From contig CAZQYO010000001.1 of the NCBI GenBank assembly GCA_964597415.1, positions 1 to 53,911 of the forward strand: a stretch of 53,911 nt of DNA, read 5' to 3'. How positions within the stretch are numbered: the stretch's first letter is position 1; the number at the start of each line of letters is the position of its first letter. The DNA is from an uncultured Chitinophaga sp. (lineage in GTDB: Bacteria; Bacteroidota; Bacteroidia; Chitinophagales; LD1). Below the pieces are notes generated by a model. That model did no database searches, had not been told where the DNA came from, and saw only the letters and a list, made by a program, of their open reading frames with translations. Position numbers and translations under genes: made by a program. This document shows positions 12,156 through 17,544 of this stretch, in pieces.

Positions 12156-12791
12156 ATGAAATGGATTCAACGCCTATTATACTCAGCCGCATTTTTCTGT
12201 CTGCTTTGTGTGGCTTTTTATCGCCTTTGGTTTTTGCGACAGCCGCAGCGAAACATACCACACAACCCTACAGAATTTGTTAGCCCGGCAAACGGTAAGG
12301 TAGTCTCTGTGAGGCATTGGAACACGACCGATATTGTAGAAACCAAAGGAGAGTTGGGCGCTATCCATCTTTGGACCAATGAGGTGGATACTGCGGGTAC
12401 TATTATCTCTATACAAATGAATCCTCTAAATGTGCATTACCAACGCGCTCCGCAGAATGGTAAGCTATTGAGTGAAAAATATACCAAAGGAAGTTTTCAC
12501 AATGCGGTCTCTATGAGTAATGATTATGGTATTCGCTTTGAAAATGAACACAACGAAATGCTATTTGAAACCACCAGCGGAAAAAGATATAAAGTGATTC
12601 AGATAGCCGGCTTCTTGGCGCGTAGAATTGTTGATTATATGAACACAAACCAAACTGTTTCACAGGGAGAAATTATTGGCCTTATCAAACTCGGCAGTCA
12701 AGTTACAGTTATACTCCCGCATAATGTCACCGTGACAACACAAGTAGGCGACATCGTTACTGATGGAGAAACGGTGCTCGGGAAAGAGTAA
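12156..12791 (+). CDS. psd: Phosphatidylserine decarboxylase family protein (short form)
   Basis: 211 aa with an N-terminal TM segment and a C-terminal LGSQV self-cleavage-type Gly-Ser site. Confidence 0.8.
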   Translation: MKWIQRLLYSAAFFCLLCVAFYRLWFLRQPQRNIPHNPTEFVSPANGKVVSVRHWNTTDIVETKGELGAIHLWTNEVDTAGTIISIQMNPLNVHYQRAPQNGKLLSEKYTKGSFHNAVSMSNDYGIRFENEHNEMLFETTSGKRYKVIQIAGFLARRIVDYMNTNQTVSQGEIIGLIKLGSQVTVILPHNVTVTTQVGDIVTDGETVLGKE

Positions 12792-12848
12792 TAAGCGAGC
12801 AGCAATTTACACCATCACCCCCTCTATTTAAGTTTTCTTCATCCCCCA

Positions 12849-13202
12849 TTACTCACTTCTTCTTTTTTTCTCCTCACGCATCTCTACAAACTCCCTTACT
12901 TCCCCTACTGTCATTTCTTTCAGTATTTCTTCCAGCACAATCGGTGGCTTTTTGCGGATGACCTGTAAAGGGTTTTCAGGATAATCTTCCGTTTTTTTAC
13001 CGGGAGACCATTGCAGCAGGTCGTTAGGAGTGCAACGCAACAAATTGCACAGGGTTTCTACGTCATCCAGCATCAGCCGGTTGGTTTTGCCATCTAAGTA
13101 TTGCATTGCTTTCTCTTTGCTGATACCCGCTTTGGTCAAAGCAGTGTAATCGTGTGCAATGGCTTTCTCCCGGCACAGGTCTTTTATCCTTAATCTTATC
13201 AT
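12849..13202 (-). CDS. Helix-turn-helix (XRE-like) transcriptional regulator, Bacteroidota type
   Basis: 117 aa. The block LCNLLRCTPNDLLQW and the preceding HTH segment match a small HTH family common in Bacteroidota. It has a charged C-terminal tail. Confidence 0.65.
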   Translation of the reverse strand: MIRLRIKDLCREKAIAHDYTALTKAGISKEKAMQYLDGKTNRLMLDDVETLCNLLRCTPNDLLQWSPGKKTEDYPENPLQVIRKKPPIVLEEILKEMTVGEVREFVEMREEKKRRSE

Positions 13203-13300
13203 GGCGGTTGTTTTTTTGCCTCCAAAGCTCCTTTATAGCCCCGTAGGCAGGGTTAAGGAACCTAAAATAAGGGTTTTATTGCCTAATTATCAACTTTTGT

Positions 13301-13489
13301 TCCTTAAGTAGGAGCAACTACTCCTTAAGTAGGAGTAAGTGCTCCTTAAGTAGGAGTAAGTGCTCCTTAAGTAGGAGTAACTACTCCGTAAGTAGGAGTA
13401 ACTACTCCGTAACAAGGAGTAAGTGTTCCTTAAGTAAGAGTAAGAACTCCTTAAGTAGGAGTAACTACTCCGTAACAAGGAGTAAATTA
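13301..13489. repeat. Nine head-to-tail 21-bp tandem repeats with internal dyad symmetry
   Basis: Units start at 13301, 13322, 13343, 13364, 13385, 13406, 13427, 13448 and 13469. The consensus is TCCTTAAGTAGGAGTAACTAC. The dyad is TACTCCT-TAAGT-AGGAGTA. Confidence 0.95.
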
Positions 13490-13618
13490 TTAAAAAACCG
13501 AAAAATGTTAACAAACAGGTAGCTTTTTGTGCAGAACAGGGCATTATTTGGGCTGAAACTTACGTTTATCTCCCTTTAATTTGAGTAACCGTAATTTATA
13601 AACCTAAACCATGGCACC

Positions 13619-14599
13619 ATGAACGACTCACAAGAAGAACATTTCGGGAGATTTCTGAAGCTAAACAGCTTTCTCGGGCTGTATGCCGCTGACCTTGCCG
13701 CCAACCCTGCCATAGCTGCCGAGAAAGTAAAAATTGCTACCCTCATTAACAACATTGGTTTGCAAGATGCCATTGGTAACAGCGATGACACCGGCTTTAC
13801 CACCATGAAAACCAACGCGGCAAATACACTGCGTGCAGCTTGCAAAGATATAAGCGGAGGCTTGAGTAGTTATTTCGAAATTATAGGGCATGTCGGGAAT
13901 TTAGAAAAGGCGAAAATGACAGATAGTCAAATTGATTACCCCGATGATGCTAAACTGAACATGGCCGCTAACCAACTCTATTTACTGGGTAATGTAGCGA
14001 CTGTAAAAGCCGACCCCCTGTTGGCAGACGCGCTACTGACCCCGGCAGATATTGATGACCTCGAAGTAAAACGTCTTGCCTGGATGGATTTGGTCACCCT
14101 GCCCGATGATAAACGAGCCGACCGGGTCGCTGCCAATAAAGAAAAGATGCGTTTGTTTGAGGTGGGTAATAAAGAGATAGTGCCGCGCCTCGCCAATTTT
14201 ATGCTCCCCTATGCCACCAACAACACCCTGCTTTACAGCAAATACGAAACCGCCAATGCCATTGACGATTTAGGCGGCAACAGCGGCACCGATGGCTACG
14301 ACATTCAGAACTACACTATCCCCGCAGGCGGCTCGGTAAATTTTCCGGCCGGGGCAGGACCTATCAATCCCGATTTGGAGCTATACATACGGGTAGTAAG
14401 CACCGGTGGCGGAGTTATTATCTGCACTACAGGTTTGCCGGCCAGCCCCTGTGCGGCAGGTTATCAACTAACATCCGGCACCACTTTTAAAGATAAAATT
14501 TCGGCTATGGACTTAGACCTTAACCTGCCCAATGTGCAGTTTACCAACCCGGGTTTAGATACCATAATCGTACGAGCAGGCACCAAGACACACACCTAA
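13619..14599 (+). CDS. Hypothetical protein (no recognisable family)
   Basis: 326-aa ORF, the only long frame in this stretch. I see no signal peptide or TM segment. It has an Ala/Leu-rich N-terminal part and a Gly/Thr/Pro-rich C-terminal part. Confidence 0.6.
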   Translation: MNDSQEEHFGRFLKLNSFLGLYAADLAANPAIAAEKVKIATLINNIGLQDAIGNSDDTGFTTMKTNAANTLRAACKDISGGLSSYFEIIGHVGNLEKAKMTDSQIDYPDDAKLNMAANQLYLLGNVATVKADPLLADALLTPADIDDLEVKRLAWMDLVTLPDDKRADRVAANKEKMRLFEVGNKEIVPRLANFMLPYATNNTLLYSKYETANAIDDLGGNSGTDGYDIQNYTIPAGGSVNFPAGAGPINPDLELYIRVVSTGGGVIICTTGLPASPCAAGYQLTSGTTFKDKISAMDLDLNLPNVQFTNPGLDTIIVRAGTKTHT

Positions 14600-14648
14600 A
14601 CTACTACCCCCTAAAGGCCAACCGAACCACTAAATTAAATTCGGAACC

Positions 14649-14768
14649 GATAACACCGCACACAAAAAATTAAAATATATGGCGCCTTACTGCGGCCACC
14701 ACTGGCACATCACCCTCCCACGGGCGTGCGTACGGTAGCGCTGTTTGAGCACAAAACCTCTTTCTAAA
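14649..14768 (+). repeat. Dispersed intergenic repeat, copy B (partner at 33-137)
   Basis: See copy A. The core is at 14681-14726. Copy B carries extra bases after the core relative to copy A. Confidence 0.75.
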
Positions 14769-14928
14769 TGGTCATCCTAAATTCGTAATTCGCTATTCAT
14801 TATCCTTTCAATTCACAATTCCTCCCCATTAGTGCCCCCAATGATTCACCCTACAACTCCGCCAACATCCTTTACCGGGAATAATTCAGAATAAATATTT
14901 TTACCGCAACAAACTTTTACCCCTTTAC

Positions 14929-15657: not shown

Positions 15658-17544
15658 ATGTTTAAGAAGTATGACGTAATTGTAGTAGGGGCGGGACATG
15701 CCGGCTGCGAAGCCGCAGCCGCAGCAGCCAATATGGGAAGTAGCGTGTTGCTCATCACTATGAACATGCAGGTAATGGGTCAAATGAGTTGCAACCCGGC
15801 TATGGGAGGCATTGCTAAAGGCCAGATAGTTCGGGAAGTTGATGCACTTGGTGGCTATTCGGGAATTGTAAGCGACAAAAGCATGTTGCAGTTTCGTATG
15901 CTCAACTTGAGCAAAGGTCCGGCTATGTGGAGCCCTCGCACACAGAACGATAGATTGATGTTTACAAACCTGTGGAGAACCATGTTAGAAGGCACTAAAA
16001 ATGTGGATTTCTGGCAAGATATGGTTAGTGGGCTGTTAGTAAAGGACAAAAAAGTGTGCGGAGTGAAGACTTCAATGGGGATAACCATTGAAGCCCAAAG
16101 TGTGGTTTTAACCAACGGAACCTTCCTAAATGGACTTATCCATATTGGCGAAAAACACTTTAGTGGAGGTCGGGCAGGTGAAAAAGCCGCTCACGGCATT
16201 ACCGAACAATTAGTAGAACTGGGCTTTGAATCAGGTAGAATGAAAACCGGAACCCCCCCACGAATAGATGGACGCAGCTTAGACTATTCTAAAATGGACG
16301 AACAGAAAGGCGATGAAGAGGTAAGCGGGTTTTCTTTCAAGAAAGGAATGCACCCCTTCGGTCGCCAATCTTCACCGGCTATCAGCCAACTCAGTTGCCA
16401 CATTACTTATACCAATCAAAAGGTGCACGATATTCTTCGCACCGGGTTCGACAAAAGCCCTATGTTTTCAGGGAGAATAAAAGGCTTAGGACCTCGTTAT
16501 TGCCCAAGCGTGGAAGATAAAATTGACCGATTTGCCGATAAAGATCGGCATCAGCTATTTGTAGAGCCGGAAGGATGGAACACGGTAGAAGTTTATGTAA
16601 ACGGCTTCTCTACGTCCTTGCCCGAAGAGGTGCAATTCAAGGCACTAAAAGAGGTTCCCGGCTTTGAAAACATGCGGATGTTCCGCCCCGGTTATGCTAT
16701 TGAATATGACTATTTTCCGCCCACCCAATTAGAACATACGCTGGAGACAAAGTTGGTGAAAAATCTCTTTTTTGCAGGGCAAATTAATGGCACTACCGGC
16801 TATGAAGAAGCTGCTTGCCAAGGCTTAATGGCGGGTATTAATGCTCATAAAGCTGCTCGGGAGGAAGCCCCTTTTGTGCTGAAACGTTCTGATGCCTATA
16901 TTGGAGTATTGATTGATGATTTGATCACTAAAGGAACGGAAGAGCCATATCGAATGTTTACCAGCCGGGCAGAATTTCGTATTCTTCTGCGCCAGGATAA
17001 TGCCGATTTGAGGCTTACCGAATTAGGGTATAAACTCGGCTTGGCAGATGAAGACCGCTTGAAAAGAGTGAGAGAAAAGAGAGCGGCTATAGATGCCATT
17101 CGTAAATATTTTGGCGAATACGGAGCCGAGCCTTCTGTATTGAATGTCGCTCTATCAGAAGCCGGTACCAGTGGTTTGAGTCAGCGGGTAAAATTAGATA
17201 AAGTACTTTCCCGCCCGCAGGTGGATATATCCCTGCTTAGAAAATCATTGAAAGAGGTGGATGAATTCCTTTCTCGATACGATAAAGAGTTTATTGAAAG
17301 TGCCGAAATTGAAATGAAATATGAAAGCTACATACGCAAAGAGGAAGAACTGGTGGAGAAAATTAATCGCTTGGAGGATGTTCACCTACAAGGAGACTAC
17401 GATTACAGTAAACTAAAGTCCCTTTCTATGGAAGCTCGAATTAAATTGACTAAAATTAAACCTACTTCTCTGGGGCAGGCAAGTCGAATCAGCGGGGTCT
17501 CTCCGGCTGATGTATCGGTATTGTTGGTTCACTTAGGAAGATAA
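15658..17544 (+). CDS. mnmG: tRNA uridine 5-carboxymethylaminomethyl modification enzyme MnmG (GidA)
   Basis: 628 aa with the N-terminal FAD motif VIVVGAGHAGCEAA, plus GRAGE and GTTGYEEAA blocks. Confidence 0.95.
   Translation: MFKKYDVIVVGAGHAGCEAAAAAANMGSSVLLITMNMQVMGQMSCNPAMGGIAKGQIVREVDALGGYSGIVSDKSMLQFRMLNLSKGPAMWSPRTQNDRLMFTNLWRTMLEGTKNVDFWQDMVSGLLVKDKKVCGVKTSMGITIEAQSVVLTNGTFLNGLIHIGEKHFSGGRAGEKAAHGITEQLVELGFESGRMKTGTPPRIDGRSLDYSKMDEQKGDEEVSGFSFKKGMHPFGRQSSPAISQLSCHITYTNQKVHDILRTGFDKSPMFSGRIKGLGPRYCPSVEDKIDRFADKDRHQLFVEPEGWNTVEVYVNGFSTSLPEEVQFKALKEVPGFENMRMFRPGYAIEYDYFPPTQLEHTLETKLVKNLFFAGQINGTTGYEEAACQGLMAGINAHKAAREEAPFVLKRSDAYIGVLIDDLITKGTEEPYRMFTSRAEFRILLRQDNADLRLTELGYKLGLADEDRLKRVREKRAAIDAIRKYFGEYGAEPSVLNVALSEAGTSGLSQRVKLDKVLSRPQVDISLLRKSLKEVDEFLSRYDKEFIESAEIEMKYESYIRKEEELVEKINRLEDVHLQGDYDYSKLKSLSMEARIKLTKIKPTSLGQASRISGVSPADVSVLLVHLGR

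What the first reader, a model, noticed from the sequence alone, without database searches (positions are those of the whole stretch)
13301..13489. Nine perfectly phased 21-bp tandem repeats with dyad symmetry (iteron/operator-like array)
Positions 13301-13489 are nine uninterrupted head-to-tail 21-bp units with the consensus TCCTTAAGTAGGAGTAACTAC. Read across unit junctions, the consensus forms the dyad TACTCCT-TAAGT-AGGAGTA.

The 5-bp core CTCCT-N5-AGGAG is intact in five units (those starting at 13301, 13322, 13343, 13364 and 13448). It is degenerate in the others. Two units (13406 and 13469) share the variant CTCCGTAACAAGGAG.

A 21-bp period is about two helical turns, so every site would face the same side of the DNA. 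The array lies 99 bp from the HTH gene start (13202) and 130 bp before the ATG at 13619, exactly where a divergent promoter and operator would be.

The architecture resembles plasmid or phage iterons, or a cooperative multi-operator array for the adjacent HTH protein. Slippage would change the copy number in helical-phase-preserving steps, which would suit a tunable or contingency switch. It is the most conspicuous non-genic structure in the window.
Basis: seen in the sequence. Interest (0 to 1): 0.7.

Follow-up and report, generated by a model that had tools for sequence, protein, structure and literature searches.

The report
Phased 21-bp regulator-site array
The nine 21-bp repeats are real, non-coding, and belong to a conserved two-gene cassette of Bacteroidota in which a small DNA-binding protein and an unknown 326-residue protein always flank a same-phase repeat array, most likely a row of binding sites for that DNA-binding protein.

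Summary
Positions 13301-13489 are nine gap-free 21-bp units. A tenth, degenerate unit lies in phase at 13283, and the exact CTCCT-N5-AGGAG dyad occurs in four units, not five.

The array is not a local oddity. Every locus I could recover that encodes a relative of the downstream 326-aa protein (22-100% identity) and had enough upstream DNA carries a 21-bp phased array upstream.

In the clade with a divergent HTH_26/XRE gene:
- The array spans 8-10 units.
- In the six loci with the window's core type it starts exactly 80-81 bp from the HTH start codon.
- Unit sequences fall into groups that track the HTH recognition helix.
- Individual units are positionally orthologous between three relatives.

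No reading frame through the array is conserved. The strong dyad and hairpin potential is peculiar to the window. There are no origin features and no plasmid or phage relatives. A 99.5%-identical strain has the same unit count.

Best reading (about 0.5): a helically phased multi-operator array for the adjacent HTH protein, controlling the divergent gene pair. The closest known geometry is BvgA at Pptx.

Main caveat: distant family members have 12-13-unit arrays with no HTH gene nearby. The iteron, contingency-switch and translated-repeat readings are not supported.

The parts
13301..13489 (.). Nine homogenised 21-bp units with consensus TCCTTAAGTAGGAGTAACTAC. Each carries an imperfect 17-bp dyad, ACTCCTTAAGTAGGAGT. 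A 63-bp (3-unit) super-period is present.
   Evidence: TRF; pattern search against shuffles; weight-matrix count; within-array identity 16.9/21.
13283..13294 (.). Degenerate in-phase tenth unit (CTAATTATCAAC). It has the core type TTAAsnATnAAC found in relatives and is positionally orthologous to their first unit.
   Evidence: It sits at offset 81 from the HTH start, in phase 0 with the array. The first units of L015, L026, L027, L028 and L029 sit at offset 80-81. Alignment A7.
12849..13202 (-). Gene for a 117-aa XRE-family protein (HTH_26), the candidate array-binding regulator. It is basic, with pI 8.4.
   Evidence: Pfam PF13443, E 2.3e-8. The AF2 model places the recognition helix at residues 29-37. 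Closest solved sequence is the N-terminus of the Stl2 repressor, 8q86, E 2e-4. pI.
13203..13282 (.). Conserved block between the HTH start codon and the first unit (inferred to hold the HTH promoter and leader). It carries a cluster of substitutions between near-identical strains.
   Evidence: Alignment A7. Ten of the 28 differences between the window and L035 fall in 13218-13274.
13490..13542 (+). Conserved block directly after the array: AAAAAACCGAAAAATGTTAAC...GCTTTTTGTGCAGAACAGGGC. Inferred candidate promoter region of the 326-aa gene.
   Evidence: Alignment A6 shows the block in the window, L015, L026, L027 and L029, and partly in L028 and L022. Reading the sequences, the TTTG of the block ends 36-44 bp after the array in the window, L015, L026 and L027. 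No exact Bacteroidota -7 consensus TAnnTTTG was found.
13619..14599 (+). Gene for a 326-aa protein of unknown function. It has an N-terminal helical bundle and a C-terminal jelly-roll-like sandwich, and is acidic (pI 4.7). It belongs to a large unannotated family.
   Evidence: No Pfam, PHROG, NCBIfam or PADLOC hit. AF2 pLDDT 86. No significant Foldseek hit. 2234 clusters at E<=1e-3. pI.
13290..13544 (-). 84-aa ORF that reads the array as (RSSYSYL)n. Judged spurious.
   Evidence: All minus-strand frames contain stops across the array in L026, L027, L028, L029 and L017. Gene callers placed small ORFs on opposite strands in L015 and L026, and none in L035.
12849..14599 (.). The whole two-gene cassette: HTH gene, array, 326-aa gene.
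   Evidence: blastn homology to nine related loci lies within 12868-14560; the flanks do not match. Neighbouring genes differ in every locus.

Best explanation
The array is a conserved cis-regulatory platform. It is a row of binding sites spaced exactly two helical turns apart, most likely for the divergently encoded XRE-family (HTH_26) protein.

In the window each 21-bp unit holds two inverted half-sites, CTCC and GGAG, one helical turn apart. The junction between units forms a second, similar dyad. Nine or ten dimers (one monomer per turn) could therefore line up on one face of about 190-210 bp of DNA.

Cooperative side-by-side binding would give a sharp, concentration-dependent switch. That switch would control the HTH gene's own promoter, which lies at a fixed 80 bp from the first site, and the promoter of the 326-aa gene, which abuts the last site.

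Shown here: the array, its period, its fixed register, its conservation, its non-coding nature, and its co-variation with the HTH protein.

Inferred: that the HTH protein is the binder, the direction of regulation (repression or activation), and the positions of the promoters.
For: 1. Every recovered locus with a relative of the 326-aa gene and enough upstream DNA has a 21-bp phased array. In ten further loci (L035 and L015-L029) it lies between that gene and a divergent HTH_26 gene.

2. The first unit starts 80-81 bp from the HTH start codon in the window, L035, L015, L026, L027, L028 and L029, although the HTH proteins are only 51-60% identical.

3. In L015, L026 and L027 the units show a 12-bp conserved core, TTAAsnATnAAC, followed by a 9-bp variable spacer. 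Units are positionally orthologous: 15-16 of 21 identities at the same position against 12 of 21 elsewhere. This pattern fits selected protein sites rather than recent slippage products.

4. Array motifs fall into groups with no significant similarity between groups. The groups coincide with HTH recognition-helix types: K[AT]xQYLxGKTNR goes with TTAAs cores, and different helices go with unrelated cores.

5. The HTH protein and the array evolve faster than the neighbouring gene (HTH 51-58% identity against 80-85%).

6. In the rearranged locus L023 a 4-unit array remains 70 bp upstream of an HTH homologue, with no intact 326-aa gene.

7. The HTH proteins are basic (pI 7.7-9.2) and the 326-aa family is acidic (pI 4.5-5.3).

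8. As a control, none of 39 phage loci with generic HTH_26 genes has such an array directly upstream.

9. A known precedent for this geometry exists: six head-to-head BvgA dimers spaced 22 bp apart on one face of the DNA, with the last one abutting the core promoter (PMC7250471).
Against: - Four distant members of the 326-aa family (L030, L032, L034, L042; about 22-27% identity) have 21-bp arrays, of 12-13 units in the two complete ones. No HTH homologue lies within the 3-7 kb recovered. The period therefore follows the downstream gene family, not only the HTH gene.
- The link between HTH helix type and array motif is confounded by shared ancestry.
- The dyad that suggests dimer binding in the window is absent from close relatives.
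- No promoter could be placed with confidence.
- No binding data exist.
Confidence: 0.5

Rival explanations
1. The array is bound by something other than the adjacent HTH protein. Candidates are an unlinked regulator, or an assembly involving the 326-aa family protein. In this reading the HTH gene is an accessory regulator acquired by one clade.
For: The 21-bp period is shared by all four motif groups, including the HTH-less loci L030, L032, L034 and L042. The group D core ACAGTTG, with a 9+12 bp layout, recalls LytTR-type direct repeats. That resemblance is from my own knowledge and was not tested.
Against: The 326-aa proteins are acidic (pI 4.5-5.3) and have no recognisable DNA-binding fold. 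No motif is common to the groups. The register is fixed relative to the HTH start codon. HTH-array adjacency survives loss of the 326-aa gene in L023.
Confidence: 0.2
2. The array is a cis-acting site of a small mobile element, such as an iteron-type origin, a centromere-like site or a recombination site. It would serve maintenance or movement of the 1.75-kb cassette rather than gene regulation.
For: The cassette sits in unrelated neighbourhoods in every locus, and homology ends at the gene boundaries. Tandem repeats of about two helical turns in 5-10 copies are typical of iterons and of parC-type centromeres (iteron review PMC4980987, listed but not read; the rest from my own knowledge).
Against: There is no Rep, partition NTPase, integrase or transposase in the cassette. 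DnaA boxes are not enriched, none lies between 11243 and 15971, and there is no skew switch. No relatives occur in 72,556 plasmids, 50,697 phages or IMG/VR. Units are stably inherited position by position.
Confidence: 0.07
3. The array is transcribed and acts as RNA: a leader made of repeated hairpins that controls stability or translation of one of the flanking messages.
For: The window array folds far better than shuffles (-80.7 kcal/mol, z -8.2). Other hairpins lie between the array and the gene in several loci.
Against: Homologous arrays in L015 and L027 do not fold better than chance (z -1.6 and -0.7). No Rfam family comes near its threshold. The conserved positions form a contiguous 12-bp core, not paired arms.
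Confidence: 0.06
4. The array is a contingency locus. Replication slippage changes unit number often, switching expression of the flanking genes within populations.
For: Units in the window are 85-90% alike, and one unit in strain L035 has been converted to the sequence of another. Unit number differs by whole units between lineages: 9, 10, 12-13 and 4. Arrays in L032 and L034 are 94% homogeneous.
Against: Four relatives have the same number, nine, with position-specific units. The window and the 99.5%-identical L035 have the same number with no indel. The arrays in relatives are too diverged (about 60% identity between units) to slip.
Confidence: 0.05
5. The array is translated as a small heptad-repeat protein: the 84-aa minus-strand ORF 13290-13544, or the open plus-strand frame.
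For: A 21-bp unit equals seven codons. The minus-strand ORF has an ATG and a hydrophobic N-terminus. The plus-strand frame TTA-AGT is open in the window, L015, L026, L027 and L029.
Against: Every minus-strand frame is closed across the array in L026, L027, L028, L029 and L017. The open plus-strand frame has no ATG, GTG or TTG before the array in the window. Differences between units are mostly non-synonymous with no third-position bias, as read. Gene callers disagree on strand between loci. The ORF has no Pfam hit.
Confidence: 0.02

Closest known systems
BvgA~P binding arrays at Bordetella promoters (Pptx, Pfha)
   Same: Several dyad sites for head-to-head HTH dimers are spaced two helical turns apart (22 bp), all on one face of the DNA. 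They bind cooperatively, and the last site abuts the core promoter. Six dimers bind at Pptx (PMC7250471). The window array has the same one-monomer-per-turn layout.
   Different: BvgA is a phosphorylated response regulator of the NarL/FixJ type encoded elsewhere, and its sites are weak and dissimilar. Here the candidate binder is a 117-aa XRE protein encoded next to the array. The sites number nine or ten, are contiguous and are nearly identical. The period is 21 bp, not 22. Binding is untested.
Iterons of plasmids and phage-plasmids (e.g. R6K seven 22-bp repeats, P1 incA nine 19-bp repeats; from my own knowledge; review PMC4980987 listed, not read)
   Same: Phased direct repeats of about two helical turns, in 5-9 copies, bound by a protein encoded next to them. 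They are often used for autoregulation as well.
   Different: There is no Rep gene, no DnaA boxes and no AT-rich unwinding element. The location is chromosomal, with no plasmid or phage relatives.
Centromere/operator arrays of small plasmid partition adaptors (ParR-parC of R1 and pSK41; omega repressor heptad arrays of pSM19035; from my own knowledge)
   Same: Contiguous tandem repeats lie upstream of an operon. A small DNA-binding protein coats them into a continuous nucleoprotein filament. The same array serves as the operator for autoregulation.
   Different: Those adaptors are ribbon-helix-helix proteins and work with a ParM or ParA motor. No NTPase is present here, and the neighbouring protein is an acidic helical plus beta-sandwich protein of unknown function.
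BldC-type head-to-tail multimers on direct repeats (PMC5859096)
   Same: A small HTH-type regulator oligomerises along a variable number of direct repeats and distorts the DNA. This could explain the arrays in relatives that lack dyad symmetry.
   Different: BldC is MerR-like and binds 9-bp repeats, with up to four subunits bound per operator in that study. Here the protein is XRE-like and the repeats are 21 bp in 9-13 copies.
LytTR response-regulator sites (9-bp direct repeats with a 12-13-bp spacer; from my own knowledge)
   Same: The period is 21 bp. The core ACAGTTG in the HTH-less arrays L030 and L032 resembles the AgrA/ComE repeat (L034 has ACAGTC).
   Different: LytTR sites come in pairs or triplets. 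No LytTR gene is adjacent. The window core, CTCCTTAAGTAGGAG, does not resemble the LytTR motif.

Membership tests
Iteron-type replication origin | Tandem direct repeats of 17-22 bp in helical phase | tested here: met
   Period 21, nine to ten units, no indels.
Iteron-type replication origin | Adjacent gene for a Rep initiator that binds the repeats | tested here: not met
   The neighbours are an HTH_26 protein and a protein with no Pfam, PHROG or NCBIfam match and no Rep-like fold.
Iteron-type replication origin | DnaA boxes or an AT-rich unwinding element next to the repeats, and residence on a plasmid or phage | tested here: not met
   DnaA-box count equals chance, and none lies between 11243 and 15971. 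There is no skew switch. No relatives occur in plasmids, phages or IMG/VR.
Phased multi-operator array for an HTH regulator (BvgA-like geometry) | Site centres two helical turns apart over the whole array | tested here: met
   Exact 21-bp register in all 14 loci examined.
Phased multi-operator array for an HTH regulator (BvgA-like geometry) | Each site is a dyad for a head-to-head dimer | tested here: inconclusive
   A strong dyad is present in the window. It is absent in L015 and L027. L017 and L029 show short dyads by eye only.
Phased multi-operator array for an HTH regulator (BvgA-like geometry) | A cognate regulator exists, and its specificity tracks the sites | tested here: inconclusive
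   An adjacent HTH_26 gene is present in 11 loci, with recognition-helix types matching motif groups. It is absent from four distant loci. The correlation is confounded by phylogeny.
Phased multi-operator array for an HTH regulator (BvgA-like geometry) | Demonstrated cooperative binding and an effect on transcription | not testable with these tools
   Needs EMSA or footprinting and reporter assays.
Contingency locus (slippage-driven phase variation) | Unit number differs between closely related strains or within populations | tested here: not met
   L035 (99.5% identical) has the same length. Only one comparable strain spans the array, because the short-read contigs break inside it.
Contingency locus (slippage-driven phase variation) | Units near-identical, with no position-specific identity | tested here: not met
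   Relatives keep nine position-specific units with about 60% identity between units. The window array is homogenised at 85%.
Protein-coding heptad repeat | A reading frame through the repeat conserved on one strand with a start codon | tested here: not met
   The minus-strand frames are closed in five related loci. The plus-strand frame lacks a start codon.
Centromere-like parC/ParR module | A partition NTPase (ParM, ParA or TubZ) in the same module | tested here: not met
   There is no NTPase domain or fold in either protein.
LytTR regulator binding sites | 9-bp direct repeats matching the LytTR consensus at 21-22-bp spacing, with a LytTR regulator in the system | tested here: not met
   The period fits, but the window core does not resemble the consensus and no LytTR gene is adjacent. 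The resemblance is limited to the group D arrays and is recalled from memory.
Structured RNA family | Match to a curated covariance model, or conserved folding | tested here: not met
   Rfam gathering and E-value scans found nothing near threshold. Folding is not conserved.

The most novel reading that the evidence does not exclude
The 21-bp array plus the acidic helical/beta-sandwich protein is the core of a previously unrecognised, widespread module. The protein family has 2234 clusters at 50% identity; the loci sampled appear to be from Bacteroidota, some by record name and the rest inferred from gene content. In this reading the array does more than control a promoter. It could template a fixed-length nucleoprotein structure, or serve as the cis site by which this gene-sized cassette, which carries no mobility gene, is moved between chromosomal sites. 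The XRE protein would be a lineage-specific add-on.
Probability: 0.15. Interest if true: 0.8.

Novelty: new variant of a known kind. Interest (0 to 1): 0.6.

Why it matters
Arrays of phased regulator sites are known. What is unusual here is a gap-free 21-bp array of 9-13 units that stays in exact register while its sequence turns over completely, across a protein family with more than two thousand 50%-identity clusters.

I found no description of such an array or of this protein family. Four literature searches and the family libraries returned nothing.

It gives a clean natural system for three things:
- studying how a small XRE protein and its operator array co-evolve new specificities;
- studying how unit number and helical phase are selected;
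- providing a sequence signature, a 21-bp period upstream, that flags a large uncharacterised gene family and its regulation in a phylum where promoter architecture is poorly known.

It also shows practically that short-read assemblies break at these arrays.

Tried and rejected
- **Genome scan for the unit.** A scan of 185,579 species genomes for GGAGTAANNNNTCCNTAANNAGGAG gave 14 single, unrelated hits and no array. The unit is lineage-specific.
- **Viral and plasmid origin.** There are no relatives of the 326-aa protein in IMG/VR, INPHARED phages or PLSDB plasmids.
- **Function of the 326-aa protein.** Pfam, PHROGs, NCBIfam, PADLOC, a PDB sequence profile and Foldseek against PDB and BFVD gave only weak cupin or jelly-roll matches to the C-terminal 100 residues.
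- **Promoter placement.** The sigma-70 scan was at chance level. The Bacteroidota -7 consensus TAnnTTTG is absent from most of the intergenic regions.
- **Universal motif.** There is no significant similarity between the four motif groups. The L016/L032 resemblance (AAATAGC...TACA) has permutation p about 0.06.
- **Origin of replication near mnmG.** There are no DnaA boxes and no skew switch.
- **Coding and RNA readings.** Both rejected.
- **Literature.** Searches for 21-bp repeats in Bacteroidetes found nothing relevant.

Full report
**1. The observation**

Reading 12700-14300 and running Tandem Repeats Finder confirm an uninterrupted array at 13301-13485. It has period 21, 8.8 copies, 85% matches and no indels, with consensus TCCTTAAGTAGGAGTAACTAC. 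It is by far the highest-scoring repeat in the window. A 63-bp (three-unit) super-period scores even better, at 90%.

The unit occurs nowhere else in the window and never in shuffles. The exact dyad CTCCT-N5-AGGAG is present in four units, not five, because the first unit is preceded by T. The variant CTCCGTAACAAGGAG occurs twice, as stated.

The flanking genes are as described. A 117-aa HTH_26/XRE protein is encoded on the minus strand (12849-13202; Pfam E 2.3e-8). A 326-aa protein with no Pfam match is encoded on the plus strand (13619-14599). The wider neighbourhood is ordinary chromosome: CorA, a cytidylyltransferase-like gene, a YkuD-domain gene, psd, ybeY and, from its sequence, an mnmG/gidA-type gene at 15658-17544. 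There is one tRNA and no Rfam match.

**2. The array belongs to a conserved cassette**

The 326-aa protein and the HTH protein each have only a handful of close relatives among 5.8 billion proteins. I fetched the DNA around those relatives. In every locus with enough upstream sequence (L015, L016, L017/18/19, L020, L022, L026, L027, L028, L029 and the near-identical strain L035), a divergent HTH_26 gene faces the 326-aa gene across 380-600 bp. That intergenic region shows its strongest autocorrelation at 21, 42 and 63 bp.

The neighbouring genes differ in every locus. blastn homology to the window stops at 12868 and 14560. The unit of conservation is therefore a 1.75-kb two-gene cassette with the array at its centre.

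**3. What is conserved and what is not**

A leave-one-out weight-matrix count gives nine units in seven loci. Four others have eight units plus a borderline or degenerate in-phase unit.

In six loci that share the core TTAA(G/C) (the window, L015, L026, L027, L028, L029), plus the window's near-identical strain L035, the first unit starts 80-81 bp from the HTH start codon. Units then follow at exact 21-bp steps. L015, L026, L027, L028 and L029 have nine units. The window and L035 have ten. This matches the intergenic lengths of 416 bp against 393 bp.

In L015, L026 and L027 the units share a 12-bp core, TTAAsnATnAAC, followed by a 9-bp variable spacer. Units are positionally orthologous between loci: 15-16 of 21 identities at the same position against about 12 of 21 at other positions. 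These arrays are therefore old and stably inherited.

The window array has instead been homogenised. Within-array identity is 16.9 of 21, orthology to the relatives is lost, and there is a 63-bp block structure. In strain L035 one unit has been converted to the sequence of another.

Motif comparison sorts the arrays into four groups with no significant similarity between groups. The period and register are conserved while the sequence is not.

The strong dyad and folding potential of the window array (z -8.2) is not shared by L015 (z -1.6) or L027 (z -0.7).

**4. Coding, RNA and origin readings**

- *Coding.* The 84-aa minus-strand ORF through the array is closed in L026, L027, L028, L029 and L017. 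The one plus-strand frame that stays open in several loci has no start codon in the window. Unit differences are mostly non-synonymous. Gene callers placed small ORFs on opposite strands in L015 and L026, and none in L035.
- *RNA.* Rfam gives nothing near threshold.
- *Origin.* DnaA boxes are at chance level, none lies near the array, and there is no skew switch. The protein family has no relatives in plasmid, phage or IMG/VR collections.

**5. Who binds?**

*Evidence for the adjacent HTH protein:*
- The register is fixed relative to its start codon.
- Recognition-helix type (residues 29-37 in the AF2 model) coincides with array motif group.
- The HTH protein diverges faster (51-58% identity) than the neighbouring protein (80-85%).
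- In the rearranged locus L023, a four-unit 21-bp array lies 70 bp upstream of an HTH homologue, next to only a fragment of the 326-aa gene.
- The HTH proteins are basic and the 326-aa family is acidic.
- None of 39 generic phage HTH_26 loci has such an array directly upstream.

*Evidence against:*
- A profile search shows the 326-aa family is large: 2234 clusters at E<=1e-3.
- Four distant members (L030, L032, L034, L042; 22-27% identity) also have upstream 21-bp arrays. L032 has 12.4 copies at 94% identity, L030 about 12 units, L034 at least 7 and L042 at least 8.
- None of these four has a homologue of the HTH within 3-7 kb.

The 21-bp design therefore follows the downstream gene family more widely than the linked HTH gene does. 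Either those genomes encode the regulator elsewhere, or another factor reads the arrays.

**6. Mechanism proposed**

In the window the half-sites CTCC and GGAG alternate in orientation about every 10.5 bp. The geometry is thus one HTH monomer per helical turn and one dimer per 21 bp, all on one face.

This is the arrangement shown experimentally for BvgA, where six head-to-head dimers sit 22 bp apart and the last abuts the core promoter (PMC7250471). Relatives whose units lack a dyad may be read in a head-to-tail manner, as BldC reads direct repeats (PMC5859096).

A conserved block directly follows the array (AAAAAGCCGAAAAACGTGATGAA...TTTTTTGTGCAGAACAGGGC). Reading the sequences, its TTTG ends 36-44 bp beyond the last unit. 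This is where a Bacteroidota -33/-7 promoter for the 326-aa gene would sit, but the match to the consensus is poor, so this step is inference.

I therefore propose cooperative coating of about 190-210 bp by the XRE protein. This would give switch-like autoregulation and control of the 326-aa gene. I put this at about 0.5.

**7. The downstream protein**

AlphaFold (pLDDT 86) predicts an N-terminal helical bundle of about 215 residues and a C-terminal jelly-roll-like sandwich of about 100 residues. Foldseek finds only weak cupin or small-jelly-roll matches to the C-terminal part. Some distant family members replace that domain with a CarboxypepD_reg-like domain. There is no defence-system, phage or NCBIfam annotation. 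Its function remains unknown.

**8. Comparison and novelty**

The array works like known phased multi-site operators and resembles iterons and parC-type arrays in form. It fails the defining tests for an iteron origin, a partition locus, a contingency locus, a coding repeat and an RNA family (see the membership table).

I rate it a new variant of a known kind: a strictly phased 21-bp array of 9-13 units that marks a large, unannotated gene family and, in one clade, a co-evolving XRE regulator.

**9. Verdict**

- Interest: 0.6.

Noticed in passing
window 13218-13274 (compare L035 2100-2156): Between the window and a 99.5%-identical strain, 10 of the 28 substitutions over 5981 bp fall in this 57-bp stretch between the HTH start codon and the array. 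Four more fall in array units 2-3. The intergenic region differs at 3.6% against 0.23% elsewhere, which suggests recombination with another allele or diversifying change.
   Followed up: partly
window 12849-14599; L015, L016, L017, L026, L027, L028, L029: The HTH-array-gene cassette lies in a different gene neighbourhood in every locus, and homology stops at the gene ends. It carries no integrase or transposase and I recognised no terminal repeats. How it moves is unexplained.
   Followed up: partly
L032 782-1041; L034 1-140; L030 2455-2696; L042 1-190: Distant members of the 326-aa family (about 22-27% identity) have 21-bp arrays with the core CGAAAT...TTTACAGTTG and no HTH gene nearby; L032 and L030 have 12-13 units, while L034 (at least 7) and L042 (at least 8) are cut by contig ends. 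L032 and L034 units are 94% identical to each other. The ACAGTTG part (L030, L032) recalls LytTR-type repeats (from memory, untested).
   Followed up: partly
L032 1217-1270; L034 146-190; L016 700-830; L015 3940-3985: Long, often perfect palindromes lie between the array and the start of the 326-aa-family gene in several loci. The window has no equivalent strong hairpin. Their role (leader structure, terminator or inserted element) is unknown.
   Followed up: no
L023 2889-3736 (also L024, L025): This is a rearranged locus. Only the C-terminal ~110 codons of a family member remain. They are followed, in the same orientation, by four 21-bp units (core GGTTCATTCA, with inverted copies on both sides) and an HTH homologue 70 bp further on.
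   Followed up: partly
L036-L041 (Logan contigs carrying the identical 326-aa protein): All six short-read contigs end 139-161 bp upstream of the gene start, inside the last units of the array. Such arrays will be systematically missing or truncated in short-read assemblies.
   Followed up: yes
window 14600-14928: A 330-bp gene-free spacer after the 326-aa gene is C- and A-rich, with GC skew down to -0.41. It has no homology to the related loci.
   Followed up: no
window 13203-13230 and relatives: On the HTH sense strand a conserved GGAGG lies about 17-20 nt before the start codon, followed by an A-run and preceded by a small G+C hairpin (CCCyG-N4-CGGGG). A Shine-Dalgarno-like element is unexpected in Bacteroidota, which generally lack them (from my own knowledge).
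   Followed up: no
P0125, P0154, P0171 (distant family members): Some members of the 326-aa family carry a CarboxypepD_reg/Ig-like domain in place of, or in addition to, the jelly-roll C-terminal domain. The family thus has a conserved helical N-terminal domain and an exchangeable beta-sandwich.
   Followed up: no
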